Positions 25,838 through 48,778 are shown, counted from the stretch's first letter. The stretch: DNA of 64,000 bases from Escherichia coli (GCF_024700885.2 NZ_CP117016.1), one strand, 5' to 3'. Made by a program: numbers and translations. The notes: generated from the letters alone by a model not told the origin.

Positions 25838-25913
25838 GCCGATATAGCTCAGTTGGTAGAGCAGCGCATTCGTAATGCGAAGGTCGTAGGTTCGACTCCT
25901 ATTATCGGCACCA
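25838..25913 (+). tRNA. thrW: tRNA-Thr (anticodon CGT)
   Basis: 76 nt GCCGATATAGCTCAGTTGGTAGAGCAGCGCATTCGTAATGCGAAGGTCGTAGGTTCGACTCCTATTATCGGCACCA: acceptor stem pairs, T-loop GGTTCGA, encoded CCA. Confidence 0.95.
25897..25913 (+). repeat. attL core (3' end of thrW)
   Basis: TCCTATTATCGGCACCA, repeated with one G missing at 38138-38153. Confidence 0.8.
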
Positions 25914-26077
25914 TCACCTAGTTTTCCCAAGTCAACCCACATCAACAAAATCATTTAAAAACATATATATTACGTTGTTTTCATACGTTTGAGGTCAACC
26001 CTTGTCTCTTGAAATCAACACGCGGTTGGGGGCACAATCAGGGGCATGTTCTGTTCGGTCTAGGAAATGTGCCCCCA

Positions 26078-27268
26078 ATGATGCTGAATGCCCGCAAGGT
26101 TGAAGCTGCGAAAGGAAAAGAGAAGAGCTACAAGCTGTTTGATGGAGGTGGCCTATATCTTCAGGTCGAACCTAATGGCTCGCGTTACTGGCGTATGAAA
26201 TACCGTTTTGCTGGTAAAGAGAAACGATTGTCCTTTGGTGTTTATCCAACAGTCACACTTGCTGATGCCAGACAAAAACGAGAAGACGCGAAGAAACTAC
26301 TCGCAGCAGGTGAAGATCCCGGCGAAGTCAAAAAAGCCAAAAAGCAGGCTTTAAATGCAGCGATTGAGACACTTAACCCATTCAGAGAAGTGGCGTTAGA
26401 GTGGCACAAAATGAAATCACCCAAATGGTCTGAGGGCTATGCTTCCGACATCATTGAGGCATTCGAGAAAGACATTTTCCCGCATATTGGGCACAGACCT
26501 ATAGCTGATATTCAGCCCCTTGAACTGCTTGAAGTTCTGAGATTGATAGAAGCTCGAGGCGCTATGGAGAAAGCGAAGAAAGTCCGTCAGCGATGCGGTG
26601 AAGTTTTTCGCTATGCCATCGTAACGGGTAGGGCAATCTACAATCCGGCACCGGATCTTGCCAGTGCGATGCAAGGACATGAAGCAGTCCACTATCCATT
26701 CCTCAAAGCCAACGAACTACCGGAGTTCTTTAATGCCCTTAATTCTTATTCAGGAAGTCCAATTGTATTGTTGGGGGCGCATTTACTTATCCTGACAGGT
26801 CTACGAACTGGAGAACTACGAGCAGGTGAGTGGCGAGAGGTGGATTTTGATAATGCGGTGTGGGAGATCCCAAAAGAACGTATGAAAATGCGTAGGAGCC
26901 ATATTGTCCCGTTGTCAAAACAAGCATTATCCCATCTCAAAAGTTTGAAAGAACTAACTGGGAACTACCCGCTGATGTTCCCTGGACGCAACGATCCTAG
27001 CAAATTTATGAGTGAAGCAAGCATTAATCAGGTGTTTAAACGTATTGGATATGCAGGGCGTGTTACGGGGCATGGTTTCAGGCATACGATGAGTACAATC
27101 CTACATGAGAAAGGATTTAACAGCGCTTGGATTGAAACCCAGCTTGCTCATTCGGACAAAAACTCTATTCGTGGAATTTATAACCATGCCCAATATCTCG
27201 AAGGGAGAAGAGAAATGATGCAATGGTATGCTAATTATTTATCTGAGCTAATTGGTACTCATAAATGA
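26078..27268 (+). CDS. int: Tyrosine recombinase, P4-type integrase
   Basis: ORF 26009-27268 (TTG); likely ATG 26078: MMLNARKVEAAKGKEKSYKLFDGGGLYLQVEPNGSRYWRMKYRFAGKEKRLSFGVYP (P4-int N-terminal arm domain); catalytic HGFRHT...H..R..Y region near the C-terminus. Confidence 0.9.
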   Translation: MMLNARKVEAAKGKEKSYKLFDGGGLYLQVEPNGSRYWRMKYRFAGKEKRLSFGVYPTVTLADARQKREDAKKLLAAGEDPGEVKKAKKQALNAAIETLNPFREVALEWHKMKSPKWSEGYASDIIEAFEKDIFPHIGHRPIADIQPLELLEVLRLIEARGAMEKAKKVRQRCGEVFRYAIVTGRAIYNPAPDLASAMQGHEAVHYPFLKANELPEFFNALNSYSGSPIVLLGAHLLILTGLRTGELRAGEWREVDFDNAVWEIPKERMKMRRSHIVPLSKQALSHLKSLKELTGNYPLMFPGRNDPSKFMSEASINQVFKRIGYAGRVTGHGFRHTMSTILHEKGFNSAWIETQLAHSDKNSIRGIYNHAQYLEGRREMMQWYANYLSELIGTHK

Positions 27269-28089
27269 ATATTTTAAAAATTAATAATACTGATTCTCTG
27301 CTCAGAGATTACTACCAGTTGGATGAAGCTTCAGAAAAAATTGGTTGTAGTGAAAAGGATATACTCTGGTTTGCCAGAGAACGAGATGTAGAGCTATGCA
27401 TGGAATTCCATGATGATGAGTATGATGTTTCATGTGGTTTGAAGATTGATGGTCAAATGGATGAGTTCTTATCTAATCTGAAATATTTACCACGAGATAG
27501 AAATGGCAATATTATGTTGTCAGACTTAAGTTCTATAAGAATCCCTGATGAAGATAATTTAATTGATAAAAATGGTTTTATTCGATGTTTCATATCCGGT
27601 TTATGGGCTGTTGATTATGAATATAAAGATCTGTTAGTTAAGCATGAGGGGCAACCGGATTCCTGGCCTATTCATTTTCTACTGGCGGGTACGCCTAATA
27701 TAAATTGTAAGGTAATTCTTTATGTAAATTATGATGAAAAAGAAAATTATTATCTTTTTGAGGTTTTGTGGATTACAAAGGTACAGATTCAAAAATTCAT
27801 TGATATAGTCTTATGCGAACAAAAGCGGATAAAAAACGCCAATAAATATAAATCACAATCTGAGGCGCAAAAACAAAAACATGCTGTTCCTCGAGCTGAA
27901 ATACTCATGGCTATTATTTCGCTCTATCATCGTGATATGAGGCTAAGAAGAGAGAGTCCAGCAGCGATAGCTGATTATCTTTTTCAACATGCCAGTGAGT
28001 TCTGGCCTAAGACCGGAGAACCGCCTTTGAGCTATGATACTGTTGTTAGTTTGCTACGTAGTTGCATGAAAAACACTAAGTTTAACTAA
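27265..28089 (+). CDS. Hypothetical protein, translationally coupled to int (ATGA overlap), AT-rich
   Basis: 274-aa ORF; no family recognised by eye; possible N-terminal HTH (LDEASEKIGCSEKDILWFARE). Confidence 0.6.
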   Translation: MNILKINNTDSLLRDYYQLDEASEKIGCSEKDILWFARERDVELCMEFHDDEYDVSCGLKIDGQMDEFLSNLKYLPRDRNGNIMLSDLSSIRIPDEDNLIDKNGFIRCFISGLWAVDYEYKDLLVKHEGQPDSWPIHFLLAGTPNINCKVILYVNYDEKENYYLFEVLWITKVQIQKFIDIVLCEQKRIKNANKYKSQSEAQKQKHAVPRAEILMAIISLYHRDMRLRRESPAAIADYLFQHASEFWPKTGEPPLSYDTVVSLLRSCMKNTKFN

Positions 28090-28214
28090 ATATTAACAAT
28101 TATTGTGGCTAATGATTTTGGATTTTTTTCATTAGTCACATTTTTCTCATTTATAACCTATGTTTTAATTTTCCGTGTTGAAGCCAATAGACTTAGATAA
28201 ACGGAGAATGATGA

Positions 28215-28421
28215 ATGTTATCTAAACATGATAATACTACTTTGCAACGACCTTCAATGGATTCTCTGATCGATATGAAGTTTATTACTTCCGATTGTTT
28301 ATTAAGTGATAAATGGATTTATCGATTGATTTCTCTGAATCGCTTTCCAAAACCTATAAAAATAGGTCGGATGTCACGATGGCGCGCTGCTGATTATTAT
28401 AAGTGGCGAGATGGGTTTTAA
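28215..28421 (+). CDS. alpA: AlpA-family transcriptional regulator / excisionase-like protein
   Basis: 68 aa; SDKWIYRLISLNRFPKPIKIGRMSRWRAADYYKW matches the AlpA/Vis HTH pattern (..iyrli..g.FPkPikiG.rs.W...ev..W). Confidence 0.75.
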   Translation: MLSKHDNTTLQRPSMDSLIDMKFITSDCLLSDKWIYRLISLNRFPKPIKIGRMSRWRAADYYKWRDGF

Positions 28422-28537
28422 GAAAACTCAGGTCAACATTTTGAGGGAATGAGAAATAAGGCAAGAGCAATTAATAAAGGGAATAGATTATCACCTACTC
28501 CCTAAGCCTTAATTGATAGTTAGTAATATTTAACTGA

Positions 28538-28711
28538 TTAGCCTTTAGGGTCAATCCCGCGTGATTGGAGTTCTTTGCGTAAAATTCTTTTAATCCAAGT
28601 TGCCAACGCGCTATCTCCATCTTTGCGCATTTCGTTTTCGAGTTGCAACCTAAAATCGTCGGTAAGACGCATTTGGAATGGTGGAGAACGTTTCTCTTGT
28701 GGTGTTGACAT
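28538..28711 (-). CDS. Small ribbon-helix-helix (Arc/MetJ-like) DNA-binding protein, candidate satellite repressor
   Basis: 57-aa ORF below the ORF-track cutoff, translated by hand: MSTPQEKRSPPFQMRLTDDFRLQLENEMRKDGDSALATWIKRILRKELQSRGIDPKG; beta-strand FQMRL plus two helices; its start codon lies inside the operator repeat. Confidence 0.6.
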   Translation of the reverse strand: MSTPQEKRSPPFQMRLTDDFRLQLENEMRKDGDSALATWIKRILRKELQSRGIDPKG

Positions 28712-28751
28712 GGTAATTACCCTAGAATATGATGACTACATGGTAATTACC
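28705..28751 (+). promoter_or_regulatory. Early rightward promoter (TTGACA-17-TATGAT) bracketed by two ACATGGTAATTACC operator repeats
   Basis: TTGACA 28705-28710, TATGAT 28728-28733; 14-bp direct repeats at 28708-28721 and 28738-28751, each with the perfect palindrome GGTAATTACC. Confidence 0.65.
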
Positions 28752-28842
28752 ATTGTAAGTATAGTTCGCTTGTAAAAGCAATGCCCGATTGTGCGGGAAC
28801 ACAAATCGGGCATTTAACCAACCGTTATAAGAGGTAACGAAG

Positions 28843-29019
28843 ATGGCTAAACAGAAGTGTACTTGGTTATTTGCGGCGATCAACCGCAGTCAACGCAATG
28901 CCCGTCCTGTGATGTTAAGGATCACCGCAGATAACGAGCGGTCAGCGCGGCGCAGACTTGCCCCGGACTATGTACTGAGCTTTGCCGGGCGCATTCCCTG
29001 CGGAGGTGAACATGCGTAA
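28843..29019 (+). CDS. Icd-like host cell-division inhibitor family small protein
   Basis: 58-aa ORF translated by hand: MAKQKCTWLFAAINRSQRNARPVMLRITADNERSARRRLAPDYVLSFAGRIPCGGEHA; resembles remembered Icd-like proteins of P4-type elements (..ARP..L.v.A..E..ARR.La....LSFAaRlPv). Confidence 0.6.
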   Translation: MAKQKCTWLFAAINRSQRNARPVMLRITADNERSARRRLAPDYVLSFAGRIPCGGEHA

Positions 29020-29371
29020 TTATCCGCACCCCGGCGAACGCTGGCAGCATGAACGTGGCTGGACGGTCACGATTATCCGATTAATAGAAGCATCGCCCTC
29101 TGTGGCACTGGTTAATCCTGAATTCAGCTGTGAAGTGCTGATACGTCATGACAGCGACAACCAGCTTTCTTCCTGCCCTCTGGCATGGTTTGAACAGCGG
29201 TATACGCGCCTGTTTGATGTACCGCTCTTTAAGCCTGCACCAGCTCCTGCAGGCGGTAGTGGTTCCGGCCCGCTGACACTGCATCCGTCTGTGCTATTTA
29301 TCCGCTGGCGGGAGCGTAGCATATGGCGTTCTGCTGAGCCTGACGACGGTCACTATTCAAAGTTTCTCTGA
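29012..29371 (+). CDS. Hypothetical protein (satellite early operon)
   Basis: ORF 28982-29371; ATG 29012 overlaps the stop of the preceding gene (ATGCGTAA). Confidence 0.55.
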   Translation: MRNYPHPGERWQHERGWTVTIIRLIEASPSVALVNPEFSCEVLIRHDSDNQLSSCPLAWFEQRYTRLFDVPLFKPAPAPAGGSGSGPLTLHPSVLFIRWRERSIWRSAEPDDGHYSKFL

Positions 29372-29402
29372 CAAAATACCGCTGAAAACGGAGTAATCCA
29401 CG

Positions 29403-29687
29403 ATGAATATTTCAAACGGGCACAACGGTGCTCAGGGCCACACTTTGCCTGAAAAACACAATACCGGTGCTTTTGCCTATGGGTTGTCAGAGGACAGTTT
29501 CGGAAAGCTGACCCGCGCAAGAAATGCCTGCGACATGCTCCAGCTTCTCTTTTCTGAATACCCGTCTCAGGCCGGAGCACTGGACGCTGGCTGTGCGCAT
29601 GGTGTCGCCGCGCTGATGGAGTACCTGCTGGCAGATTTGACGGATATTGCACACAGCTGCGCACTGATTGAAGGAGGTGCCAGATGA
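29403..29687 (+). CDS. Hypothetical protein (satellite early operon)
   Basis: 94-aa ORF, same strand and GC style as neighbours; ATGA overlap with the next ORF. Confidence 0.55.
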   Translation: MNISNGHNGAQGHTLPEKHNTGAFAYGLSEDSFGKLTRARNACDMLQLLFSEYPSQAGALDAGCAHGVAALMEYLLADLTDIAHSCALIEGGAR

Positions 29688-30067
29688 ACCAGCCGCAGGT
29701 TTCCATTTTCCCGGCAGAAATGACCACCGCGCTTTACCGGCGGGCTATTGCTTCAGCATGGCGGCAGAAAATGCTGAACGAAACTGGCAGTGATCAGTAT
29801 GGTCCGCACAGCCTGACGGTGGAGCGTATTGAAATGGCCATTGCGCTGCATATCGAGTGCGTACTGATTAACGAGTACGGCGAAGTGCAGGGCGCCGCTG
29901 CCGCGCTGGCACTGCTGACTGACATGCTGGAGCCGTCACTGCTGACCGCGCCGCCGGTACTGACCGCGCGCGGCTGTGAAGTGATGGCGGAGATGTACCG
30001 CACGCTTCCGGCGGCCTTTGATGACTTCTGCAGTACCGGTGTGACGTTGTATGAGGGGGAAGTATGA
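29684..30067 (+). CDS. Hypothetical protein (satellite early operon)
   Basis: 127-aa ORF, ATGA-coupled on both sides. Confidence 0.55.
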   Translation: MNQPQVSIFPAEMTTALYRRAIASAWRQKMLNETGSDQYGPHSLTVERIEMAIALHIECVLINEYGEVQGAAAALALLTDMLEPSLLTAPPVLTARGCEVMAEMYRTLPAAFDDFCSTGVTLYEGEV

Positions 30068-32736
30068 CAATACAGACGGTTACGCAGATTTCAGCCGCCG
30101 CACGGGGGAAATGGCCCGTTATTCTGCAGATGCTGCGTATTGATGTACCTGAAAACGGCAGGCACGGTCCCTGCCCGAAATGTGGGGGCAAGGATCGTTT
30201 TCGCCTTGATGACCTTGACGGGCGCGGGACGTGGATCTGCAGCCAGTGTGGCAATGGTGACGGTCTGGATCTGGTTAAGCTCGTAACCGGTTACAGCGTC
30301 AGAAAGGCTGCGCAGGAGGTGGCGCAGGTGCTTAATGTGCCGAATATGCAGGAACTGCCTGTTAAGCCTGCCAGACAAAAAGCCCCTAAACGCGACATGG
30401 GTCTTACCGTGGCGGCGCTGATGAAAGAGAGCCACACGGGAGAAAGCGCCTATCTGACAGGAAAAGGGTTCGCCGGATACCCGGCCTCTCTGACCGGAAG
30501 CGTGCAGCATATCAGCGGTAAGGATTTCCCTGCCGGTTCCCTGCTGTTACCACTCACGACCAACACCGGAGCCGTGACCGGTGCACAGCTTATCGCCCCG
30601 ACGGGTGAAAAAAGCATACTGCCCGGCAGCACGATGAAAGGCGCGTTTGTGTCGCTCAGCCCGTTACCGTCTGAACCACCGGTACAGGTGGTGATTACCG
30701 AAGGTTACGCTACGGCGCTGACGGTAAGTCAGCTCACTGCCGGATGCGTAGTGGCTGCCATATCTGCGGGCAACCTGCCCAATGTGGCGCAGTCGCTGCG
30801 GGCACGCTGGCCTGAGGTAAAAATTATCATCGCCGGTGATAACGATTTTCAGGACGGAGATGAGAATCCCGGCAGAGCCTTTGCTGAACGGGCGGCAAAA
30901 GCTGTTGGCGGCTGGATGACGCTGCCACCAGGAGAGATTAAGGCTGACTGGAATGACTTTCATCGGGAGCACGGTATTACCCGTGCCCGTGAAGCCTTTC
31001 GCAACGGTCTGGTACTGTGCGGGGAAGGCCGCACGCAACTGCCGCACGGGTTCCGTCTTACCCAGGAATATCTCTGGTATGAAAAGCAGGTACAGCGCAA
31101 CGGTGAGACGGAGATCCAGAACGTCAAAATATGCAGCCCGCTGCGCGTGACGGCAATCACCTGCGATGCCGATGGCGGTAACTTCGGACGACTGCTGGAA
31201 TGGGAAGATACGTGGGGTGAGTGTCGCCGCTGGGCGATGCCGATGGAAATGCTGAGCGGCAGTGGTGAGGAACTGCGCCGGGTACTGCTGGTTAACGGGC
31301 TGTCTTATATCAGCACCACCGGTGAGGCACGCGCACGCCTGATGGAATATATCTCACTGTGTAAACCGGAACGCCGCGTGACCTGCGTCAGTCGTACTGG
31401 CTGGCATGGTCAGGTTTACGTCCTGCAGGATGAGGTCAGCGGTGAAGGTGCAGAGGGTGTCATTCTCCAGACCACTTCCGTGCAGGGGCGTGATTTCCGC
31501 GTGTCGGGCACAACAGAGGAATGGCGGGAGCATGTATCCCGCTACTGTACCGGCAACTCCCGCGTGGCATTTGCTGTCAGCCTGGCCTTTGCTGCACCAC
31601 TGTTACGGCTGGTTGGTATGGACGGCGGCGGCTACCACCTCAAAGGGGAATCGACAGACGGTAAGACCACCACCATGAAAGCGGCAACCTCCGTCTGCGG
31701 CGGGCCTGACTACTGGCAGACATGGCGGGCCACCGGCAACGCGCTGGAGGGATGCGCCAGCCGCCGCAACGATGCCGCCATGATGCTTGATGAGATCCGG
31801 GAAGTTGACGGACGCGAGGCAGGCAATATCGCCTACATGCTGGCAAACGGTCAGGGCAAGGGCCGTGCCGGTACGGACGGTGAGCTGCGTACCCGTAAGC
31901 AGTGGCGCCTGTTGTTCTTTTCAACTGGCGAGTTGTCTCTGACCGAACATGCGGCAAAGGCCGGTGAGCGTACTTTTGCCGGGATGGAAGTCAGGATGAT
32001 CCAGATCCCCAGCGATTCCGGGAAGTTTGGCGTTTTTGAGGAGCTGCACGGCTTCGACAGCGGCAAGGCTCTGGCAGAGCATCTTGAATGGGCCACGTCC
32101 TGCTACTACGGTTCGCCGTTCCGGGAGTGGCTGAAAGCACTGACCGCTGATCTTAACGGACTAACGGCACAGGCAAAATCGCTGATGAAGGAATATGCTG
32201 CCGCCCTGACTCCGAAAGATGCAGGCAATCAGGTGGGCCGGGCTGTGAACCGCTTTGCTCTGGTGGCGATGGCAGGTGAACTGGCAACCCGTCTGGGTAT
32301 CACCGGCTGGCCTGAGGGTGAAGCACTGCGGGCAACCCGCGTCTGCCTGAACGCATGGCTGAAAGATCGCGGGCACACCGCCAATCAGGAAGATATCGCC
32401 GCACTGGAGCAGGTTCGCAGTTTCTTTACCGCGAATCAGTACAGCCGCTTTGCAGACTGGTATGACGAGCGCAACCGCCCCGGCAATATGGTGGGCTGGC
32501 GCAGGGTGGAGAAAGGCAGTACCGCGCAGGGCACGGAAGCTGTCACTACGTTCTATGTCATGCCGTCCGGCTGGAAAGAAATCTGCAGGGGATTTGACCC
32601 GCGCAAGGTGGCGCGTCTGTGCGCAGATCGTGGATACCTGCTGCCCTCCACAGATGGCAAACTCCAGACAACCATTCGCCCGCCAGAGATGAATCCCCGC
32701 AGGCTCTATGTCTTCAACAGCGAGGTGCCTGGTTAA
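30064..32736 (+). CDS. P4 alpha-type bifunctional DNA primase / replicative helicase
   Basis: 890 aa; N-terminal Zn ribbon CPKCGGKDRFRLDD...CSQCG, Toprim-like acidic motif IIIAGDNDFQDGDENPG, helicase Walker A GESTDGKTT. Confidence 0.88.
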   Translation: MTIQTVTQISAAARGKWPVILQMLRIDVPENGRHGPCPKCGGKDRFRLDDLDGRGTWICSQCGNGDGLDLVKLVTGYSVRKAAQEVAQVLNVPNMQELPVKPARQKAPKRDMGLTVAALMKESHTGESAYLTGKGFAGYPASLTGSVQHISGKDFPAGSLLLPLTTNTGAVTGAQLIAPTGEKSILPGSTMKGAFVSLSPLPSEPPVQVVITEGYATALTVSQLTAGCVVAAISAGNLPNVAQSLRARWPEVKIIIAGDNDFQDGDENPGRAFAERAAKAVGGWMTLPPGEIKADWNDFHREHGITRAREAFRNGLVLCGEGRTQLPHGFRLTQEYLWYEKQVQRNGETEIQNVKICSPLRVTAITCDADGGNFGRLLEWEDTWGECRRWAMPMEMLSGSGEELRRVLLVNGLSYISTTGEARARLMEYISLCKPERRVTCVSRTGWHGQVYVLQDEVSGEGAEGVILQTTSVQGRDFRVSGTTEEWREHVSRYCTGNSRVAFAVSLAFAAPLLRLVGMDGGGYHLKGESTDGKTTTMKAATSVCGGPDYWQTWRATGNALEGCASRRNDAAMMLDEIREVDGREAGNIAYMLANGQGKGRAGTDGELRTRKQWRLLFFSTGELSLTEHAAKAGERTFAGMEVRMIQIPSDSGKFGVFEELHGFDSGKALAEHLEWATSCYYGSPFREWLKALTADLNGLTAQAKSLMKEYAAALTPKDAGNQVGRAVNRFALVAMAGELATRLGITGWPEGEALRATRVCLNAWLKDRGHTANQEDIAALEQVRSFFTANQYSRFADWYDERNRPGNMVGWRRVEKGSTAQGTEAVTTFYVMPSGWKEICRGFDPRKVARLCADRGYLLPSTDGKLQTTIRPPEMNPRRLYVFNSEVPG

Positions 32737-32770
32737 GGCTTTGCGTGAGTCTTATTTATTAAGGGTAACA

Positions 32771-32958
32771 GGTGAAACAGGTGGAACAACCGTATTTTAC
32801 AGGGCTGAACCTGTTCCACCTTCTGAAATAGTGAGGTGGAACAGATGTAACGCCAGCCAATCCGCTGTTCCACCTTGTTACCCGCGATGTTCCACCGGTG
32901 CAGTGTATATAAATGCCTTATAAAACAAAGCCGTAACACATGTTTCACCTGTTCCACC
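32771..32958. repeat. Origin-type iteron cluster: 8 copies of GGTGGAACA/TGTTCCACC around an AT-rich core
   Basis: Forward copies at 32771 (variant GGTGAAACA), 32780, 32835; reverse copies at 32812, 32866, 32888, 32941 (variant TGTTTCACC), 32950; AT-rich tatataaatgccttataaaacaaag at about 32905-32929. Confidence 0.75.
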
Positions 32959-33046
32959 GCATCAGGGACATAAAGCAGACTGAAACAGAGGGCATTTTTA
33001 TCTGGCTGGCTTTCATAGCCACGTCTGAATAACCGCAAGCGCCCGT

Positions 33047-33102
33047 TGTGCCAGCCACCACACACTGAACACCGATAGTGTGCTTGTGTCAGCCACGACA
33101 CA
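33047..33102 (+). promoter_or_regulatory. Ogr/Delta-dependent late promoter (two TGT-N12-ACA sites) upstream of sid
   Basis: TGTGCCAGCCACCACACA (33047-33064) and TGTGTCAGCCACGACACA (33085-33102), centres 38 bp apart; sid ATG at 33137 preceded by AGGAG. Confidence 0.65.
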
Positions 33103-33136
33103 ATTGACGTAACGAACCAACCCGACAGGAGAAGTC

Positions 33137-33880
33137 ATGAACAATACCGCAGTAAATAACAACCTTTCCACTTTTCCGGCTGTAACGCAGCGGGCACTGG
33201 AAACCATGAACACAGCCAGAAACGCATGGCTTGAAGCACGTCGTCAGCAGAAAGCGGCAGCGGATAATATTGCGACAATCCGCCAGCGTCGCGCTGAAAT
33301 GGAAGCCACGACGAACACACTGAATGAGGAGTGGCGCACGCTGTTTCGTGAAAGTCAGGGCGTGATCTCAAAGGAAATGAAAAAACTGCGCACGGAAATT
33401 GCGCTGGGACGAGAAACGCTTGAGGATTTTGATGAGCTGCTGGCGGCTCAGGAAAGCGAAAATGCACTTTTGCCGCAGAAAGCTGCAGAATTAGCCGGAA
33501 AGTATATCCACGCGCATAACATTCTTGTGGATATTCGCGCAAAACAAATCTGGGAGGATTTTATGCAGTCGCATGGAAAAGTGCTTATTCAGACGCTGAG
33601 CCTGCTTAAATCCACAATGGGCCGGGAAGCCAGTGCCGTTGTGGGTGTGGTGAATTCAGTTAATGACCCGGACACAGTGCTGAAAGACTTTATTCATAAA
33701 TATATCACCAGACCGGCTCTGGCTAACGATGCGATGCCTGAGCAGGACCCGGTGTTTAAACTGGCGGGAGTTGCCCCGGATTATGCGGCGCGTCTGGATT
33801 TCAGTAATCAACTCTCTCCGGCAGCTATGCATAAAATTAAGGTTCGTCAGGAACTTGCTGAGAAGGAGAAAGCAGTATGA
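33137..33880 (+). CDS. sid: Sid-like capsid size-determination (external scaffold) protein
   Basis: 247 aa; segment EEWRTLFRESQGVISKEMKKLRTEIALGRETLEDFDEL parallels remembered P4 Sid (DDWRTAFRAAGGVLSDELKQRHIE...); size and position fit. Confidence 0.7.
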   Translation: MNNTAVNNNLSTFPAVTQRALETMNTARNAWLEARRQQKAAADNIATIRQRRAEMEATTNTLNEEWRTLFRESQGVISKEMKKLRTEIALGRETLEDFDELLAAQESENALLPQKAAELAGKYIHAHNILVDIRAKQIWEDFMQSHGKVLIQTLSLLKSTMGREASAVVGVVNSVNDPDTVLKDFIHKYITRPALANDAMPEQDPVFKLAGVAPDYAARLDFSNQLSPAAMHKIKVRQELAEKEKAV

Positions 33881-34428
33881 CGGCCCGAGGCACGCCTGAC
33901 CAGGCACTTACCAGTTTTCGGAATGCCCGTATTCTGTGGGCCGGACATAATGAGAGCCGAAAAGCCGTTGAACAACAGATAACATCTCTCCTCGCTGCCA
34001 CAGAAAAACCAGCAGATTATGCCCGACAGCTCGAATTACTGCGGGAACGTCTGGATGTGCTGAAATGGCAAATTAACTGTGCTGCGCGCGAATGCATTTA
34101 CTCGCAGCATTTACTGATGGAGGCCTGCACAGAAGCCGCTCTCAGCAATTTTATGCAGGCGAATGGGGCAGCCCTGACATCTGCACTGGCTCCGTTCCTG
34201 AAGGGGCGCGGAGGGGTTGACGTTGCGTCCCGTATATTACGCAGTGCTCTGGTTCGCCAGCTGGCAATAACACCGCCTGAATTTGCCGGGGATTATCGTG
34301 AGATCCTGGATGAATCCGGTTTGATGCTTGACCCCGGGATGATTCGTGATTGCCAGGGTTCTTACACCCCGGCACAACATCTGCGTTTTCAGCAACGCCT
34401 GAATGACATTAACGATATACAGGAGTGA
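33877..34428 (+). CDS. psu: Psu-like polarity-suppression / capsid decoration protein
   Basis: 183 aa; FMQANGAALTSALAPFLKG parallels remembered P4 Psu FMQQHGTALAAALAPELMG; ATGA-coupled to sid. Confidence 0.7.
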   Translation: MTARGTPDQALTSFRNARILWAGHNESRKAVEQQITSLLAATEKPADYARQLELLRERLDVLKWQINCAARECIYSQHLLMEACTEAALSNFMQANGAALTSALAPFLKGRGGVDVASRILRSALVRQLAITPPEFAGDYREILDESGLMLDPGMIRDCQGSYTPAQHLRFQQRLNDINDIQE

Positions 34429-34433
34429 TATTA

Positions 34434-34706
34434 ATGGCACTTAAATGTCCGGAATGCGGTACAGTTGCACACGCCAGAACAGCAGCCTATGAAGCTCCGT
34501 CAGTTAAACGCTCGTGGTATCAGTGCCAGAATCTGGAATGTTCCTGCACATTTACGGCACTGGAGAGTGTGGATAAGATAATCATGAAACCCCGGCGCAA
34601 TGAACAGGAACCAGACAAATCACAAACCCCGGTAAAACAACAGCAAACGCTCAATCGCTATGGCTCCGCGTCAAAACTGTCAAGCCGTCAGCAGATTCCT
34701 GTCTGA
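34434..34706 (+). CDS. Ogr/Delta-family zinc-finger late transcription activator
   Basis: MALKCPECGTVAHARTAAYEAPSVKRSWYQCQNLECSCTFTALESV: CxxC-N22-CxxxxC Ogr/Delta finger; AGGAG RBS at 34421-34425. Confidence 0.85.
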   Translation: MALKCPECGTVAHARTAAYEAPSVKRSWYQCQNLECSCTFTALESVDKIIMKPRRNEQEPDKSQTPVKQQQTLNRYGSASKLSSRQQIPV

Positions 34707-34727
34707 TTAGAAAAAAAATGCCCACGT

Positions 34728-34754
34728 AATCCCGGTCGAGTACTGGGATTTTTA
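34728..34754 (+). terminator. Rho-independent terminator of the sid-psu-delta late operon
   Basis: aatcccgg tcgagta ctgggatt + ttt (8-bp stem with one G-U, T-run). Confidence 0.65.
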
Positions 34755-34916
34755 ACACCTTACCCCTGGCTGGCCTGAGAGCGCATGAGTGCATGTCTAT
34801 GGCGCATGAAAACGCATGAGTCTCATGCACCATTTTTGACGCGAAAGCCCTTGTGTGGTGGCTTCTGAGACGATTAATGAGGTGCATGAAAACCAGTCTG
34901 TTAAGTGAAGCGGGAA

Positions 34917-34935
34917 GGCGTGCGGGGCTGCGCAC
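34917..34935. other. Candidate P2/P4-type cos (cohesive end) sequence
   Basis: GGCGTGCGGGGCTGCGCAC matches the remembered 19-nt P2/P4 cohesive end GGCGAGGCGGGGAAAGCAC at 12 of 19 positions (both ends conserved); location after psu/delta, as in P4. Confidence 0.35.
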
Positions 34936-35260
34936 GTAGCAGGGTTAAATGGTCAATTCTGGCGCAGCTCACGACATTAAGTCAGCCTCAATAGATGTAC
35001 GTGTTGGTAGGGGTAATTCGCTACTTTTTTGTATCCTAAATTGTATGGTTTGATGCTGATCGTTTCTTCACCGCACCTGCAGAGATATCAATTCAATGTG
35101 GACAAAAATGAGTCTGGCTCTTTCCGTATCACTAGAATTGCCAGTATTGTTAGGGATGATGCCCATATCATACGGAGGGAGCCAGTGGGGGCGATTGCGC
35201 GTGGAAAGTGCTTTGGATTTATTCATCGGTTTTATGATTCTACATAAGGAGCAAAGGTAC

Positions 35261-35289
35261 TTGTATCGTATGAAAAAAAATAGTATAGA
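35261..35289 (+). promoter_or_regulatory. Candidate retron promoter (TTGTAT-17-TATAGA)
   Basis: -35 at 35261-35266, -10 at 35284-35289; places the transcription start at the first base of the a1 repeat (~35295). Confidence 0.45.
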
Positions 35290-35294
35290 TATAA

Positions 35295-35457
35295 TGCTCC
35301 TTACGCGTTATGGCATAGTTATATGCTAGTCGGGCGATTAGCCAGACTCGAACTTATTGAACGGTATTAGGGTTGCGCTTGGTGTGCCTCTGGATTGCAC
35401 TCCATGCTGTCGCGCAATCCAGAGGCACACCAAGCGCTTCCTTTAGGTAAGTGAGTA
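35295..35457 (+). ncRNA. Retron msr-msd non-coding RNA (predicted)
   Basis: a1 TGCTCCTTAC (35295-35304) pairs with a2 GTAAGTGAGTA (35447-35457); G35305 directly 3' of a1 in CTTAC-G-CG context; two short msr hairpins (35311-35328, 35329-35347); 24-bp perfect msd hairpin 35375-35398/35414-35437; immediately upstream of effector and RT genes. Confidence 0.7.
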
Positions 35458-35529
35458 AAAACAGCACCTTCTTCGATTTATGATGAAGGTGCTGCAATCG
35501 TAACGTTTTTTGTATACACGGATAGTATA

Positions 35530-36498
35530 GTGGCTGAGACATACGAAGATAAAGTTGCTAATCATGTTTCAGAGTGGGAAATGGAAAATTTCCGTGTATG
35601 TTATGATGATCAGGTTATTTTCTTATGTGGTGCGGAAGTACTTCCTCAAGGAAGTGTTCAGACTTCAATGAGAGGGCATTTTTATCACTATTGCCTGAAT
35701 AAAAATAAAGATATAGCTGATAAAATAATTCTTGCCGAAAACTTCAAAAAATATCTTCAAAATAATCATTATCCAGACTTAATAACTTTTGAGCATGATG
35801 TTGCAAGTATATCTAGTTTAGTTGTTATTTTCTTGGAAAGCAGTGGTTCAATTGCTGAGTTAGGTGTTTTCTGTAATATTAGTGATGTCAATAAAAAATT
35901 ATTGATATTTGTTCCATCAGATGAAGTTGAAGGTGACAAGAAAGAGTCTTTCATTTACTTAGGGCCTTTATTGTTTTTAAAAGAAAAGGTCAATGAAAAA
36001 GCATTTAAGATTTATCCAAAACCCACTAATGGTTCTGATTACTCCGAGCATTTAGAGATTATGGCTGATGACTTGGCTGAACTATTACCTAGAAGTGGTA
36101 AGTTTGAAAGCTTCGATCCTGACAATTTAGGGCATATAGCTTTTCTTATATGCAGAATTGTGCATTTAGTAATGCCTATTAAGCTAAAGGAAATATTAAA
36201 TTGTTTAAAAATAATAGGTATCAATAAATATACTCTGACTGAGGTTGAAAGAATTTTGTTTTTATTGGAAACATTGGGTTTTATAAATATTTATCCGTAT
36301 GGCGATTTAAAATACTATTATTCAATGCAAGCCAGGCAAAATCTTAAATTAGGGAAAAATAAAACCGGATTCACAATCGATGAGGCTGGTATTTTTACTG
36401 ATATTAGTGTTTTTATCAATGACAATAAATTATGTAGTGATAAAAAAAGACGGCTGGTTTTGAAAGGCATTAAGGAGAAGCATAATGGACATAATTAA
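35530..36498 (+). CDS. Retron effector: nucleoside deoxyribosyltransferase-like N-domain plus C-terminal winged-helix-like domain (St85/Ec73-type layout)
   Basis: 322-aa ORF (GTG start; ATG at 35581 is an alternative); Rossmann-like VIFLCGAE and FLESSGSIAELGVF (candidate catalytic Glu) typical of NDT-like retron effectors; overlaps the RT start by 14 nt. Confidence 0.7.
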   Translation: MAETYEDKVANHVSEWEMENFRVCYDDQVIFLCGAEVLPQGSVQTSMRGHFYHYCLNKNKDIADKIILAENFKKYLQNNHYPDLITFEHDVASISSLVVIFLESSGSIAELGVFCNISDVNKKLLIFVPSDEVEGDKKESFIYLGPLLFLKEKVNEKAFKIYPKPTNGSDYSEHLEIMADDLAELLPRSGKFESFDPDNLGHIAFLICRIVHLVMPIKLKEILNCLKIIGINKYTLTEVERILFLLETLGFINIYPYGDLKYYYSMQARQNLKLGKNKTGFTIDEAGIFTDISVFINDNKLCSDKKRRLVLKGIKEKHNGHN

Positions 36499-37417
36499 AA
36501 AAATCGCAGATGAAACTCTAATGCCGGTATCAAAAGTATCTGCTTTTATATTTACAGCCCCATATAGATATAAAGTATATCCCATCCCCAAAAGGAATGG
36601 TGGGTTTAGGGAGATTGCTCAACCGTCAAGGGCATTAAAGTTTATGCAAAGGATTGTTATTGCTGAACTAGAGAAAGTACTTAAGGTTCATGAAAACGCA
36701 TATGCTTATGTCAAAGGACGTAGTATAAAAGATAATGTGGAAAAGCATCAAAGAAACTCTTATATTTTGAAAGTTGATTTCTGCGACTTTTTTAATAGCA
36801 TAAACCCTTACGACCTTGAGTTATGTTTAAAAAACAATGGGTTAGACTCATTGTTAAGCTCACAAGAATTATTGAATAAACTTTTTTTCTATAAGAAAAG
36901 TAAAAGAGGTGCTTTATCAATGAGCATCGGGGCACCTAGTTCTCCATTTTTGTCAAATGCGATTATGTATAAGTTTGATTCAGTCATTAGTGATATGTGT
37001 TCAAATAAAAATATTACTTATACAAGATATGCTGATGATCTTACATTTTCTACTAATGAAAAAGGTATTTTGTATGAATTCATACATGAAATAGATAAAG
37101 TTCTTGAGGAGATAGATAGTCCTAAATTAAAACTAAATGATAAGAAAACCATATTTGCATCTAAAAAATGCAATCGTCATATAACAGGAATTGTTATTAA
37201 TAACGAAGAAAAACTTTCAATTGGTAGAGATAAAAAACGTTACTTAAGTAGTTTAATTCATAAATTCTCGCTTAATGCACTTAATGAGGAAGGAGTTGAA
37301 CATTTAAAAGGGTATTTGGCGTATGTAAATAAAATTGAACCTTCATTCATTAGCAGAATGAAAAGGAAATATGGAGTCGAAGTTGTCAACTCCATAATCA
37401 CATTTAATCCATTATAA
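36485..37417 (+). CDS. ret: Retron-type reverse transcriptase
   Basis: 310 aa; RT motifs FREIAQPS, NAYAYVKGRSIKDN, KVDFCDFFNSI, IGAPSSPFLSN, catalytic YTRYADDLTFS and retron-typical ITGIVIN (VTG) motif; no maturase, endonuclease or other extra domains. Confidence 0.9.
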   Translation: MDIIKKIADETLMPVSKVSAFIFTAPYRYKVYPIPKRNGGFREIAQPSRALKFMQRIVIAELEKVLKVHENAYAYVKGRSIKDNVEKHQRNSYILKVDFCDFFNSINPYDLELCLKNNGLDSLLSSQELLNKLFFYKKSKRGALSMSIGAPSSPFLSNAIMYKFDSVISDMCSNKNITYTRYADDLTFSTNEKGILYEFIHEIDKVLEEIDSPKLKLNDKKTIFASKKCNRHITGIVINNEEKLSIGRDKKRYLSSLIHKFSLNALNEEGVEHLKGYLAYVNKIEPSFISRMKRKYGVEVVNSIITFNPL

Positions 37418-37894
37418 ATGTGAACTTATTATATTTATAATGGTTGTGCTTTTTTCTTGTACCTTAGGGGTGTAAAAGAATGTCATCATGAAGATAATTA
37501 AAAAATGAATGGCAATAAGAGTAATAGGTAACATTTTTTCAATATCACTTAAATGGCGATGCCTTTTTTGTGTAATAACTTCCTCTTCTCTTTTGAAAGG
37601 AGTTATACCTATCTTGACCTCCATCTCCTGAATTACTGTAAACTTAGCAGCATTAATTCTTTTATAGGAAGTAATTAGATTTATCCAATAGATATTAATT
37701 ACGACTCCAGCGAGAGAGATTAAGATTACCCAAATAGGCTGTATTGTTGGCTTTAAAGAAAAATATCCAACAAGCGGTAAAATAGAAGAGTTTAAGGCTA
37801 ATAAAAATGTATTTGACTTAAGTCTTCGATCACTTATTCTATCCGCCATCTCAACGCATGTTTTATATATTTCTATGACTTTATCATCCGTCAC
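37412..37894 (-). CDS. Small predicted 3-TM membrane protein of unknown function (candidate defence/abortive-infection effector)
   Basis: 160 aa; amphipathic N-terminal helix IEIYKTCVEMADRISDRRLKSNTF, then hydrophobic segments FLLALNSSILPLVGYFSL, IWVILISLAGVVINIYWINLI, MLPITLIAIHFLIIFMMTFFY; AT-rich; stop overlaps the RT stop. Confidence 0.65.
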   Translation of the reverse strand: MTDDKVIEIYKTCVEMADRISDRRLKSNTFLLALNSSILPLVGYFSLKPTIQPIWVILISLAGVVINIYWINLITSYKRINAAKFTVIQEMEVKIGITPFKREEEVITQKRHRHLSDIEKMLPITLIAIHFLIIFMMTFFYTPKVQEKSTTIINIISSHL

Positions 37895-38137
37895 TAATAG
37901 TATCCTTATAAATTTCTGAGTTGTTCAAATAAATGTTATCATATATTTTTATCAACGTAATATGTATTTTTACGTATTTTTAACTGTGAGAGATACATAG
38001 TGATTGTTGGGTGCATGTACAATCCTTGATACTTAACAATGAAAGCGTAGTTGTGGGGGGGGGGCATATTTGGGGGCATTACTATTTAATCTTTCTTGAT
38101 TTTTATTATAAAACAACTGGTTGTATTGATGTTTTGT

Positions 38138-48552: not shown

Positions 48553-48565
48553 TGCATTGAATAAT

Positions 48566-48594
48566 AAAAATGGCGCAAATGCAGCGCCATTTTT
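48566..48594 (+). terminator. Terminator after yagU
   Basis: aaaaatggcgc aaatgca gcgccattttt. Confidence 0.8.
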
Positions 48595-48743
48595 ATAGGT
48601 TAAAAACATTGCTTTTTACTTTCTGAAGCAGATAGCCAGTGAGTACATCGCGCTACTTCAGGATGCTGTAGATCCGGAGAACACTATAGAGGAAGATGCA
48701 TTGTTGCTGGCAGATGGAAGAAGTTTCGGGTTTTGTTATCCCT

Positions 48744-48778
48744 GAAAAACGAAGCCCCGCGGTTATAGCTGGCGGGGC
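48744..48778 (-). terminator. Terminator after ykgJ
   Basis: gccccgc/gcggggc stem followed on the reverse strand by cgttttt. Confidence 0.65.

What the first reader, a model, noticed from the sequence alone, without database searches (positions are those of the whole stretch)
35295..35457. Explicit msr-msd model: a1/a2 stems, branching G at 35305, 24-bp perfect msd hairpin
Seen in sequence: a1 5'-TGCTCCTTAC (35295-35304) pairs with a2 5'-GTAAGTGAGTA (35447-35457). That gives 10 bp with one G-U and one bulged base (35452). The base directly 3' of a1 is G35305, in the context CTTAC-G-CG, comparable to the TTA-G-CG context of Ec86 as I recall it. Two short msr hairpins follow: TGGCATA/TATGCTA at 35311-35328 and GTCGGGC/GCCAGAC at about 35329-35347. 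A perfect 24-bp inverted repeat, GCGCTTGGTGTGCCTCTGGATTGC (35375-35398) / GCAATCCAGAGGCACACCAAGCGC (35414-35437) with a 15-nt loop, fills the msd position directly before a2. A TTGTAT-17-TATAGA promoter would start transcription exactly at a1. Inference: reverse transcription primed from the 2'-OH of G35305 and templated from 35446 leftwards would give an msDNA of roughly 70-80 nt dominated by the long hairpin.
Basis: partly seen in the sequence, partly recalled or inferred. Interest (0 to 1): 0.7.

Follow-up and report, generated by a model that had tools for sequence, protein, structure and literature searches.

The report
Retron msr-msd RNA gene, St85 family

Summary
Window 35295-35457 is the msr-msd gene of a type II-A1 (St85/Sen2-family) retron. 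Rfam msr matches 35296-35365 at the gathering score. The next two genes are an STM3845/RcaT-type effector (35530-36498) and a retron reverse transcriptase (36485-37417); both pass NCBIfam cut-offs. The cassette sits in the cargo hotspot of a P4-like satellite at tRNA-Thr in 23 of 5426 E. coli genomes.

In 56 homologous loci G35305 is invariant, the a1/a2 helix abutting it covaries (6 of 10 pairs change on both sides), and a long msd hairpin always fills the same slot.

Corrections:
- By the family rule that gives 79 nt for Yf79, the msDNA should be about 86 nt, not 70-80.
- The outermost a1/a2 pair is not conserved.
- The promoter is a weak consensus match, supported only by its conserved position.

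It is not Retron-Eco9. It is an unnamed member of a known kind, so interest is low.

Two side observations are worth a look. The 24-bp stem sequence is held at 47/48 nt across cassettes whose proteins are about 55% identical. A convergent 8xMP/RipA membrane-protein gene always accompanies this subclade.

The parts
35261..35289 (+). Putative msr promoter: -35 TTGTAT (35261-35266), 17-nt spacer, -10 TATAGA (35284-35289)
   Evidence: Read from the sequence. It was not called by the consensus scan. A TTG and a TAnnnT box sit at the same distance from the branch G in 58 homologous loci. Homology with the closest relative L082 begins at CTTGTAT. The transcription start site was not measured.
35295..35304 (+). 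a1, the 5' arm of the a1/a2 helix
   Evidence: Pairs with 35447-35457 in the minimum-free-energy fold. The family helix covaries. T35295 is G in relatives.
35305..35305 (+). Predicted branching guanosine, whose 2'-OH primes reverse transcription
   Evidence: Aligned to the consensus G of Rfam msr. Invariant in 56 of 56 homologous ncRNAs. The base 5' of it always closes the a1/a2 helix. The branch itself was not measured.
35311..35328 (+). msr hairpin 1 (TGGCATA / TATGCTA, loop GTTA)
   Evidence: Found in the fold. The stem sequence differs between loci while staying self-complementary (alignments).
35329..35347 (+). msr hairpin 2 (GTCGGGC / GCCAGAC with a central G.A), the most conserved msr element
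   Evidence: Found in the fold. 88% of cells are paired over 56 loci and 3 of 7 pairs change on both sides.
35354..35360 (+). Conserved TTATTGA motif at the msr 3' region; reverse transcription is predicted to stop just 3' of it
   Evidence: Conserved across 69 loci. The Rfam msr model ends at 35365. The stop position is inferred from the Yf79 convention (PMC3335539).
35361..35446 (+). Predicted msd template, 86 nt. The msDNA would be its reverse complement, 5'-CTAAAGGAAGCGC...CCTAATACCGT-3'
   Evidence: The length rule is checked on L062 = Yf79, which gives 79 nt. G35446 is invariant. The DNA fold is -35.7 kcal/mol and dominated by the long hairpin. The ends were not measured.
35369..35444 (+). 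msd stem-loop: outer AGGG/CCTT (35369-72 / 35441-44), TT/TT internal loop, 24-bp perfect stem (35375-98 / 35414-37), 15-nt loop
   Evidence: A hairpin fills this slot in all 56 loci, with a median longest perfect stem of 18 bp. The stem base GCG/CGC is conserved and the fourth pair covaries.
35447..35457 (+). a2, the 3' arm of the a1/a2 helix, with bulged T35452
   Evidence: The bulged base is A in L082, as expected for an unpaired position.
35462..35494 (+). Hairpin directly after a2 (CAGCACCTTCTTC / GATGAAGGTGCTG) with no adjoining T-run; a likely 3' end or attenuator of the ncRNA
   Evidence: The one substitution in L082 makes the stem perfect. 34 of 56 family loci have a significantly stable hairpin at this position, many with a T-run.
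35530..36498 (+). Retron effector (STM3845/RcaT family, nucleoside deoxyribosyltransferase-like), 322 aa
   Evidence: PADLOC NDT_II-A 2.3e-79. NCBIfam STM3845_fam 224.5 bits against a cut-off of 100. RefSeq product 'retron St85 family effector protein'.
36485..37417 (+). Retron reverse transcriptase, 310 aa
   Evidence: Pfam RVT_1 1.4e-24. PADLOC RT_II-A 6.6e-123. NCBIfam retron_St85_RT 347.4 bits against a cut-off of 235. YADD, NxxxH and xTG motifs are present.
37412..37894 (-). Convergent 8xMP/RipA membrane-protein gene overlapping the RT 3' end; a possible accessory of this subclade (not shown to be part of the retron)
   Evidence: Pfam 8xMP 1.5e-28. Present in exactly the same 23 E. coli genomes as the retron. 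Present in all subclade loci and in none of the other RT-homologous loci.

Best explanation
Window 35295-35457 is the msr-msd non-coding RNA gene of a type II-A1 (St85/Sen2-family) retron. The retron is carried in the cargo hotspot of a P4-like satellite prophage.

Proposed mechanism (inferred from the family unless marked otherwise):
1. Transcription starts at about 35295 from a weak promoter at 35261-35289. It yields one RNA that continues into the effector and RT genes or ends near the hairpin at 35462-35494.
2. The RNA folds as the sequence and the comparative data show. a1 (35295-35304) pairs with a2 (35447-35457). This places G35305 at the end of the helix, next to the first template base G35446.
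3. Two msr hairpins (35311-28 and 35329-47) form the RT recognition platform.
4. The RT (36485-37417) primes from the 2'-OH of G35305. It copies 35446 leftwards through the 24-bp hairpin and stops just 3' of the conserved TTATTGA (35354-60).
5. RNase H1 removes the template.
6. The product is an msDNA of about 86 nt dominated by one long hairpin. It may be trimmed and debranched by ExoVII, as reported for Sen2 and Eco9.
7. By analogy with Sen2/Eco9, the RT-msDNA complex holds the RcaT-like effector (35530-36498) inactive. Phage interference with the msDNA releases the toxin and aborts the infection.
For: Shown here:
- Rfam msr match at the gathering score, with G35305 on the consensus branch position.
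- Effector and RT pass the NCBIfam St85-family cut-offs and the PADLOC II-A models. RefSeq gives the same names.
- The minimum-free-energy fold equals the proposed structure, z = -8.9.
- 69 of 81 RT-anchored sequences searched carry an msr match upstream.
- G35305, G35446 and the hairpin-2 core are invariant in 56 loci.
- The a1/a2 helix is 85% paired, with 6 of 10 pairs changed on both sides. For all scored helices together, pairing is 79.8% against at most 44% in the slid controls.
- Cognate a1/a2 pairing beats non-cognate pairing, 8.68 against 7.16 bp, in 0 of 10000 permutations.
- A long msd hairpin is present in 56 of 56 loci. The window's template length of 86 nt equals the family median.
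- The promoter boxes sit at a conserved distance from the branch G.
- The bulged base T35452 is free to vary.

From the literature:
- Type II-A1 covers Sen2/St85, Vc81 and Ec73, and shares its ncRNA type with type I-A (PMC7736814).
- RT-msDNA acts as the antitoxin of RcaT, and msDNA production depends on RNase H and ExoVII (bioRxiv 10.1101/2020.06.22.160168).
- RNase H1 sets the termination point; Eco9 RT-DNA is unbranched (PMC8989520).
- P4-like hotspots carry retrons (PMC9122126).
Against: - No expression, msDNA or branch-point data exist for this locus.
- The a1/a2 helix is weaker than the family norm: 5 bp, a bulge, then 5 bp, against 8-9 contiguous bp.
- The outermost a1/a2 pair is not conserved.
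- The promoter fails the consensus scan. A perfect TATAAT at 35290-35295 would start transcription inside a1, but it is TATAAG in both close relatives.
- The 86-nt length rests on a convention that was itself a prediction for Yf79, modelled on St85.
- The defence mechanism is transferred from homologues only 43-57% identical or less.
- The predicted msDNA has no GATC site. Any Dam-type trigger reported for related retrons (my recollection, not checked here) would therefore not apply.
Confidence: 0.9

Rival explanations
1. The locus is a retron by descent, but its ncRNA is impaired. The interrupted a1/a2 helix and the weak promoter would mean that little or no msDNA is made, leaving the cassette a decaying or differently regulated remnant.
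For: - a1/a2 is 5 bp, a bulge, then 5 bp, where the family averages 8.7 contiguous pairs.
- Every lineage of the nearest subclade also has an irregular a1/a2.
- The promoter matches 8 of 12 consensus positions and was not called by the scan.
Against: - Both ORFs are intact and pass curated family cut-offs.
- The 2.2-kb cassette is at least 99% identical in 22 of the 23 genomes and 95-99% in the other.
- The msr core and msd are highly conserved across genera.
- An RcaT-type toxin without its msDNA antitoxin would be expected to be lethal (bioRxiv 10.1101/2020.06.22.160168). An intact effector therefore argues for a working msDNA.
- The irregularity is shared by a whole, clearly maintained subclade.
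Confidence: 0.06
2. In read-through transcripts from the upstream P4 late genes, a1 pairs with the perfect upstream complement TAAGGAGCA (35245-35253) instead of a2. This would give an alternative, non-productive fold that regulates msDNA synthesis.
For: A 9 of 9 complementary match lies 41 nt upstream of a1. It is a better duplex than a1/a2 itself. It is conserved in strain SY038.
Against: - It lies upstream of the -35, so it is outside the predicted transcript.
- It is absent from L082 (RT 89% identical), whose homology starts at the -35.
- It is not part of the family architecture.
- It contains an AAGGAG Shine-Dalgarno-like string that could be there for unrelated reasons.
Confidence: 0.03
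3. The 24-bp inverted repeat is an ordinary transcription terminator or protein-binding palindrome between the P4 delta gene and the downstream operon, and the retron-like flanks are coincidental.
For: It is a long GC-rich perfect palindrome in an intergenic region.
Against: - No T-run follows it, and the terminator scan does not call it.
- Its flanks TAGGGTT...TTCCTTTAG match the retron msd flanks of STnc400 and of the family consensus.
- It lies between an Rfam-scored msr and a covarying a2.
- Every homologous retron has a hairpin in the same slot.
Confidence: 0.01

Closest known systems
Retron-Sen2 (St85) of Salmonella Typhimurium, type II-A1
   Same: - Same gene order: msr-msd, RcaT/STM3845-type effector, then RT overlapping it.
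- Both proteins pass the NCBIfam St85-family models.
- The msr matches the Rfam model built on this clade.
- The msd flanks (TAGGGTTGCG...CGCTTCCTnTAG) and the stem-plus-loop length (63 against about 62 nt) match the STnc400 consensus.
   Different: - The stem sequence is entirely different. STnc400 scores 53 bits against a threshold of 80.
- a1 ends TTAC-G rather than TTTA-G, with an extra C-G pair.
- a1/a2 is interrupted by a bulge.
- The msDNA has no GATC, whereas the St85-type consensus contains GAUC.
- The cassette is carried on a P4-like satellite at tRNA-Thr and has a convergent 8xMP gene.
- Protein identity to Sen2 was not measured here.
Retron-Eco9 (E. coli NILS-16), type II-A1
   Same: It is an E. 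coli retron with an RcaT-like toxin and an RT-msDNA antitoxin. It gives modest defence against T2 and T7, and depends on RNase H and ExoVII (bioRxiv 10.1101/2020.06.22.160168; PMC8989520; PMC13645617). It is the best functional analogue.
   Different: It is not the same element. RcaT-Eco9 has Ser at residues 155, 181, 254 and 292 (PMC13645617). The window's effector has N, D, I and I at those positions, and no offset within +/-40 residues restores four serines.
Retron-Eco3 (Ec73) in retronphage phiR73
   Same: It is a type II-A1 retron (PMC7736814) carried by a P4-like satellite of E. coli, in the same cargo hotspot (PMC9122126, citing Inouye 1991).
   Different: From my recollection of the literature, not tested here: Ec73 makes a 73-nt msDNA, its RT is 316 aa, and the element is integrated at selC. 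Here the predicted msDNA is 86 nt, the RT is 310 aa, and integration is at tRNA-Thr(CGT).
Type I-A retrons Ec78/Ec83 (Eco7/Eco4)
   Same: Their RTs are the closest solved structures, at about 262 bits. They share the IA/IIA1 ncRNA type (PMC7736814). Type I-A loci align with the window's msr, a1/a2 and msd flanks.
   Different: Their effector is an ATPase plus HNH nuclease downstream of the RT, not an NDT-like protein between the ncRNA and the RT.
Retron-Eco1 (Ec86), type II-A3
   Same: It has an NDT-like effector and a UUA-G-CG-type branch context. By coincidence its msDNA length is the same (85-86 nt).
   Different: Its RT is distant: 123 bits against 263 bits for the Ec78 clade. The effector match is weak, 1e-6 over 130 residues. 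By my recollection its gene order is different.

Membership tests
Retron (msr-msd ncRNA + RT) | Reverse transcriptase of the retron clade with YADD, NAxxH-type and VTG-type motifs | tested here: met
   RVT_1 1.4e-24. PADLOC retron RT models reach 6.6e-123. YTRYADD, N84..H88 and R231-x-x-T234-G235 are invariant in the family alignment.
Retron (msr-msd ncRNA + RT) | msr RNA with the family's sequence and structure | tested here: met
   Rfam RF00170 scores 53.4 bits against a gathering score of 52, covering the full model 1-69 at 35296-35365. The margin over the threshold is small.
Retron (msr-msd ncRNA + RT) | Inverted repeats a1/a2 flanking msr-msd, with a conserved G immediately 3' of a1 | tested here: met
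   The helix is in the minimum-free-energy fold. G is invariant in 56 of 56 loci. There is covariation in 6 of 10 pairs and a permutation test gives 0 of 10000. The window's own helix is interrupted by one bulge.
Retron (msr-msd ncRNA + RT) | Stable stem-loop in the msd template directly 5' of a2 | tested here: met
   24-bp perfect stem. The homologous slot is filled by a hairpin in 56 of 56 loci.
Retron (msr-msd ncRNA + RT) | Production of msDNA joined by a 2'-5' bond to the branching G | not testable with these tools
   This needs msDNA isolation and sequencing and a branch-point mutant. No published data were found for this sequence.
Type II-A1 / St85 (Sen2) family | RT belongs to the St85 RT family | tested here: met
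   NCBIfam NF038233 retron_St85_RT scores 347.4 bits against a cut-off of 235. This model also covers type I-A RTs: PDB chains named 'St85 family' include Ec78.
Type II-A1 / St85 (Sen2) family | NDT-like STM3845/RcaT effector encoded between the ncRNA and the RT | tested here: met
   NCBIfam NF038232 STM3845_fam (equivalog) scores 224.5 bits against a cut-off of 100. PADLOC NDT_II-A gives 2.3e-79.
Type II-A1 / St85 (Sen2) family | Toxin neutralised by RT-msDNA; anti-phage activity | not testable with these tools
   This was shown only for Sen2 and Eco9 (bioRxiv 10.1101/2020.06.22.160168; PMC8989520).
Retron-Eco9 (identity with the named element) | RcaT with Ser155, Ser181, Ser254 and Ser292 | tested here: not met
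   The window's effector has N155, D181, I254 and I292. The residues come from PMC13645617.
Retron-Sen2 / St85 (identity with the named element) | msd matching Rfam STnc400 at its gathering score | tested here: not met
   53 bits against 80. Only the flanks and the structure match, and the stem sequence differs throughout.

The most novel reading that the evidence does not exclude
This retron may belong to a P4-satellite-borne subclade with two unusual properties.

First, the msDNA stem may be read by its sequence, not only by its shape. The 24-bp stem arms are 47/48 identical between cassettes whose RT and effector are about 55% identical and whose synonymous sites are saturated. Over the same comparison the msr, the hairpin loop, a1/a2 and the promoter have all drifted.

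Second, a convergent 8xMP/RipA membrane protein may be a fourth, obligate component. It is present in all loci of the subclade and in exactly the same 23 E. coli genomes as the retron.

If both hold, the stem would be a sequence-specific ligand or decoy (for the effector, the 8xMP protein or a phage factor), and the system would be a four-part retron.
Probability: 0.2. Interest if true: 0.55.

Novelty: new member of a known kind. Interest (0 to 1): 0.2.

Why it matters
For the question asked, the result is reassuringly ordinary. A tool-free reading of raw sequence reconstructed a retron ncRNA almost base for base, and the element falls into the best-studied retron clade. The practical value is modest.
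- The RefSeq record examined annotates the two proteins but not the ncRNA. The coordinates given here (promoter, a1, branch G, msd, a2) would let the msr-msd gene be annotated.
- They would also let this retron be used or tested directly, for example as an editing scaffold with a perfect 24-bp stem.

The side observations could matter more. If the conserved stem sequence and the ever-present 8xMP gene are functionally tied to the retron, they bear on an open question: what the msDNA actually senses in type II-A systems.

Tried and rejected
- **Full-text search for the stem sequence (DNA or RNA, both arms):** no paper holds it. It is also absent from the supplements of PMC8989520.
- **Is it Retron-Eco9?** Rejected by the four-serine test.
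- **Is the hairpin a terminator?** There is no T-run and the scan does not call it.
- **Promoter scan:** no site passes the tool's criteria. Promoter support therefore rests on positional conservation only.
- **Phage collection search with the 2.2-kb cassette:** the only hit is a 52-nt msr-core match in a Vibrio satellite.
- **Second 'place' in the E. coli hits:** it is just the palindrome matching itself on the other strand.
- **My first a2 search by best complement:** it mis-picked distal sites in L064, L021 and L039. The MAFFT alignment showed the true a2 at the conserved position.
- **Pair counting on the mixed alignment:** the TTTA-G and TTAC-G classes are out of register by one column in a2. 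a1/a2 was therefore scored on the TTAC-class alignment A4 only.
- **attR direct repeat of the tRNA-Thr 3' end:** none of 16 nt or more was found.
- **Literature on 'RipA' or '8xMP':** only RIPA-buffer hits. No solved structure and no NCBIfam hit.
- **Is the msd conservation unique?** No. Other pairs with RT identity of 52-60% reach 80-88% msd identity. The window's pairs are the extreme of a general tendency.

Full report
**1. The observation**

- a1 TGCTCCTTAC (35295-35304) pairs with a2 GTAAGTGAGTA (35447-35457) as 5 bp, a bulged T35452, then 5 bp including one G.U.
- G35305 follows a1.
- Hairpins lie at 35311-35328 (7 bp, loop GTTA) and 35329-35347 (GTCGGGC/GCCAGAC with a central G.A).
- A 24-nt, 100% complementary inverted repeat (35375-35398 / 35414-35437, 15-nt loop) precedes a2.

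An unconstrained RNA fold of the 163 nt returns all of these helices. It adds four outer pairs at 35369-72 / 35441-44. The energy is -82.6 kcal/mol against -48.5 +/- 3.8 for shuffles (z = -8.9, 0 of 200 shuffles as stable). This is far beyond chance.

**2. What it is**

Rfam finds three families in the 64-kb window. One is retron msr (RF00170) at 35296-35365, at 53.4 bits against a gathering score of 52 and covering the full model. The alignment puts G35305 on the consensus UUA-G-CG guanosine.

The next segment, 35368-35486, matches RF02058 STnc400 at 53 bits, below its threshold of 80. From memory, STnc400 is the Salmonella sRNA that covers the St85 msd region. The flanks TAGGGTTGCG...CGCTTCCTnTAG and the structure match, while every stem position differs.

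Downstream lie two overlapping genes.
- Effector, 322 aa (35530-36498): PADLOC NDT_II-A 2.3e-79; NCBIfam STM3845_fam 224.5 bits against a cut-off of 100.
- RT, 310 aa (36485-37417): RVT_1; PADLOC RT_II-A 6.6e-123; NCBIfam retron_St85_RT 347.4 bits against a cut-off of 235.

RefSeq names them 'retron St85 family effector protein' and 'retron St85 family RNA-directed DNA polymerase'. No ncRNA feature is annotated in the RefSeq record examined.

The cassette occurs in 23 of 5426 complete E. coli genomes, always on the chromosome. It sits at the end of a P4-like satellite integrated next to tRNA-Thr(CGT) (25838-25913). That element carries an integrase, a P4 alpha-type primase (30064-32736), a Sid-like protein, Psu and an Ogr/Delta protein. 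This is the known P4 cargo hotspot, which has been reported to hold retrons (PMC9122126).

In the classification of Mestre et al. this is type II-A1. That type contains Sen2/St85, Vc81 and Ec73, and shares its ncRNA type with type I-A (PMC7736814).

**3. Comparative test of the structure**

Using an alignment of 34 RT homologues, I fetched 80 loci from one-genome-per-species contigs. Their RTs are 37-56% identical to the query. These loci were chosen through the protein, not the RNA.

Iterated nhmmer found an msr upstream of the RT in 69 of the 81 sequences searched. It lies about 1.1 kb upstream where an NDT gene intervenes (44 loci have an effector homologue) and about 0.2 kb upstream in type I-A-like loci.

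Two branch contexts exist: TTTA-G-CG in most loci, and TTAC-G-CG in the window and 18 others.

A MAFFT alignment of 56 non-redundant ncRNAs aligned both ends without help. It shows G35305, G35446 (the first template base) and the hairpin-2 core as invariant.

Results by element:
- **a1/a2.** On the TTAC-class alignment, the 10-pair helix abutting the G is paired in 85% of cells, and 6 pairs change on both sides. For example, the pair equivalent to C35300-G35451 is U-A in 11 loci, C-G in 7, A-U in 1 and U-G in 1. For the four scored helices together, pairing is 79.8% against at most 44% when partners are slid by 1-3 columns, and no shuffle reaches the observed covariation score.
- **a1/a2, alignment-free check.** Each a1 forms a longer helix with its own downstream region than with those of other loci, 8.68 against 7.16 bp. 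This is reached in 0 of 10000 permutations, and it also holds within each class.
- **Hairpin 2.** 88% of cells are paired, and 3 of 7 pairs change on both sides.
- **Hairpin 1.** Its sequence changes from locus to locus while remaining self-complementary.
- **msd hairpin.** Every one of the 56 loci has a long hairpin between the conserved TTATTGA and a2. The median longest perfect stem is 18 bp; the window's is 24.

**4.

*(a) msDNA length.* The distance from the base after TTATTGA to the base before a2 is 86 nt in the window, which is the family median. The same count gives 79 nt for L062, the Yersinia frederiksenii retron published as Yf79. That retron was described with a 70-nt msr and the branch G at position 12 (PMC3335539). 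The STnc400 alignment implies a hairpin one nucleotide longer than the St85 consensus, again pointing to about 86 nt. I therefore predict an msDNA of about 86 nt (template 35361-35446), not 70-80 nt. It folds as DNA into one long hairpin at -35.7 kcal/mol. Sen2 and Eco9 msDNA needs RNase H1 and ExoVII, and Eco9 RT-DNA is unbranched (bioRxiv 10.1101/2020.06.22.160168; PMC8989520). The mature product may therefore be a few nucleotides shorter and debranched.

*(b) Helix ends.* In the two closest relatives, T35295 is G, so the outermost pair is lost. These relatives are strain SY038 (ncRNA 97% identical) and a metagenomic contig, L082 (RT 89% identical). The bulged T35452 is A in L082, as expected for an unpaired base.

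*(c) Promoter.* TTGTAT-17-TATAGA matches only 8 of 12 consensus positions and the scan does not call it.
- In its favour, 58 loci have a TTG and a TAnnnT box at the same distance from the branch G. The boxes are shifted by one base in the TTAC class, as the one-base-longer a1 requires.
- Also in its favour, homology between the window and L082 begins exactly at CTTGTAT.
- The overlapping perfect TATAAT at 35290-95 would start transcription inside a1, but it reads TATAAG in both relatives.
- The start site is therefore plausible but unmeasured.

*(d) An alternative partner for a1.* A perfect 9-nt complement of a1 lies upstream at 35245-53. It is outside the conserved cassette and absent from L082, so I treat it as incidental.

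**5. Mechanism**

Shown here: the RNA architecture and its conservation, and the identity of the two proteins.

Inferred from the family:
- priming from the 2'-OH of G35305;
- copying from 35446 leftwards;
- RNase H1-dependent termination next to TTATTGA;
- an RT-msDNA complex that neutralises the RcaT-like toxin until a phage perturbs the msDNA, leading to abortive infection.

**6. Identity and novelty**

The element is not Retron-Eco9. RcaT-Eco9 has serines at 155, 181, 254 and 292 (PMC13645617), where the window's protein has N, D, I and I.

It is not St85 itself, because the stem differs throughout.

It is probably not Ec73. From memory, Ec73 has a 73-nt msDNA and sits at selC. This was not tested.

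The exact RT sequence is in UniProt as A3RLX5 and the effector as A3RLX4. No paper holding the ncRNA sequence was found.

Beyond close copies (96% and 89% identity), the nearest RTs are 54-60% identical.

**7. Seen on the way**

*A conserved cassette.* The nearest subclade comprises Klebsiella, Serratia fonticola, Leclercia, Mangrovibacter and two IMG/VR contigs. Its RTs are 54-58% and its effectors 56-59% identical to the window's. It carries the same cassette in P4-like satellites: ncRNA, effector, RT, then a convergent 8xMP/RipA gene overlapping the RT stop.

*A conserved stem sequence.* In that subclade the msd stem arms are almost identical to the window's, 47/48 nt. By contrast:
- 3rd-codon identity is 41%, and only 21 of 60 four-fold sites are identical;
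- the msr is 76-81% identical;
- the promoter is about 50% identical;
- the hairpin loop is 54% identical in L084, L087 and L002, and 88% in L086;
- a1/a2 differs, with a different irregularity in each lineage.

Among 152 locus pairs with RT identity of 50-60%, the median msd identity is 64% and the 95th percentile 84%. The window's pairs score 85-94% and include the maximum. Other pairs reach 80-88%, so this is the extreme of a general tendency rather than a singular case.

*The 8xMP gene.* It is found in exactly the same 23 E. coli genomes as the retron and in none of the 79 other RT-homologous loci. I found no literature on it.

*A hairpin after a2.* A hairpin directly after a2 (35462-35494) is conserved. 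It has counterparts, often with T-runs, in 34 of 56 loci.

Noticed in passing
window 35375-35398 / 35414-35437; L084 2200-2560, L086, L087, L002, L089, L090: The primary sequence of the msd stem is almost unchanged (47/48 nt) in cassettes from Klebsiella, Serratia, Leclercia and Mangrovibacter. Their RT and effector are only about 55% identical to the window's and their synonymous sites are saturated. The msr (76-81%), promoter and a1/a2 have diverged, as has the hairpin loop in most of these loci. The single differences are uncompensated, giving G.A or C.T mismatches. This is the upper extreme of a family-wide tendency: median msd identity is 64% at 50-60% RT identity.
   Followed up: yes
window 37412-37894 (-): An 8xMP/RipA 'octameric membrane protein' gene is convergent with the RT and overlaps its 3' end by 6 nt. 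It occurs in exactly the same 23 of 5426 E. coli genomes as the retron. It is next to the RT in all loci of the nearest subclade (down to 39% identity) and in none of the other 79 RT-homologous loci. I found no literature, solved structure or NCBIfam model.
   Followed up: partly
window 35245-35253: TAAGGAGCA is a perfect 9-nt complement of a1 (35295-35303), lying 41 nt upstream of it and upstream of the -35. It is conserved in strain SY038 but absent from L082, whose homology starts at the -35. It is probably incidental.
   Followed up: partly
window 35462-35494: A 13-bp hairpin lies directly after a2, and the nearest T-run is 12 nt further on. The only substitution in L082 perfects the stem. 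34 of 56 family loci have a stable hairpin at this position, many of them canonical terminators. It could set the ncRNA 3' end or attenuate read-through into the effector and RT genes.
   Followed up: partly
window 35509-35531: The promoter-like pair TTGTAT ... TAGTATAG recurs just before the effector's GTG start (35530) with a shorter spacer (8 nt rather than 14 nt). It might be a second regulatory site. It also raises the question of whether the effector really starts at GTG 35530 or at the ATG 16 codons downstream.
   Followed up: no
window 35361-35446 (predicted msDNA): The predicted msDNA contains no GATC and no CCWGG site, whereas the St85-type msd consensus (STnc400) contains GAUC. A Dam-methylation trigger of the kind I recall being proposed for related retrons would therefore have no target here.
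   Followed up: no
window 25838-37900: The element at tRNA-Thr(CGT) is a P4-like satellite prophage: integrase, Icd-like protein, DUF5375 protein, alpha primase (30064-32736), Sid-like protein (33137-33880), Psu (33877-34428) and Ogr/Delta (34425-34706). The retron lies at the distal end. Truncated LysR and ykgR fragments follow it (L001 annotation). No attR repeat of 16 nt or more was found.
   Followed up: partly
PQ189325.1 6475-6526 (Vibrio phage 10N.261.55.B9_PE001, 11.5 kb): An 86.5% match to the msr core (window 35326-35377) lies in an unannotated stretch of a small Vibrio element. This suggests a retron of the same ncRNA type on another kind of satellite.
   Followed up: no
E. coli E2348/69 NC_011601.1 1701554-1701605 and about 19 other genomes: A 52-nt match at 92.5% to the msr core, with nothing annotated under it. 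It is presumably the unannotated msr of a different clade-1 retron in EPEC and related strains.
   Followed up: no
window 48558-48758 (+): Rfam IS009 (RF02111) matches at 190.7 bits, well above its gathering score of 117. It is unrelated to the retron.
   Followed up: no
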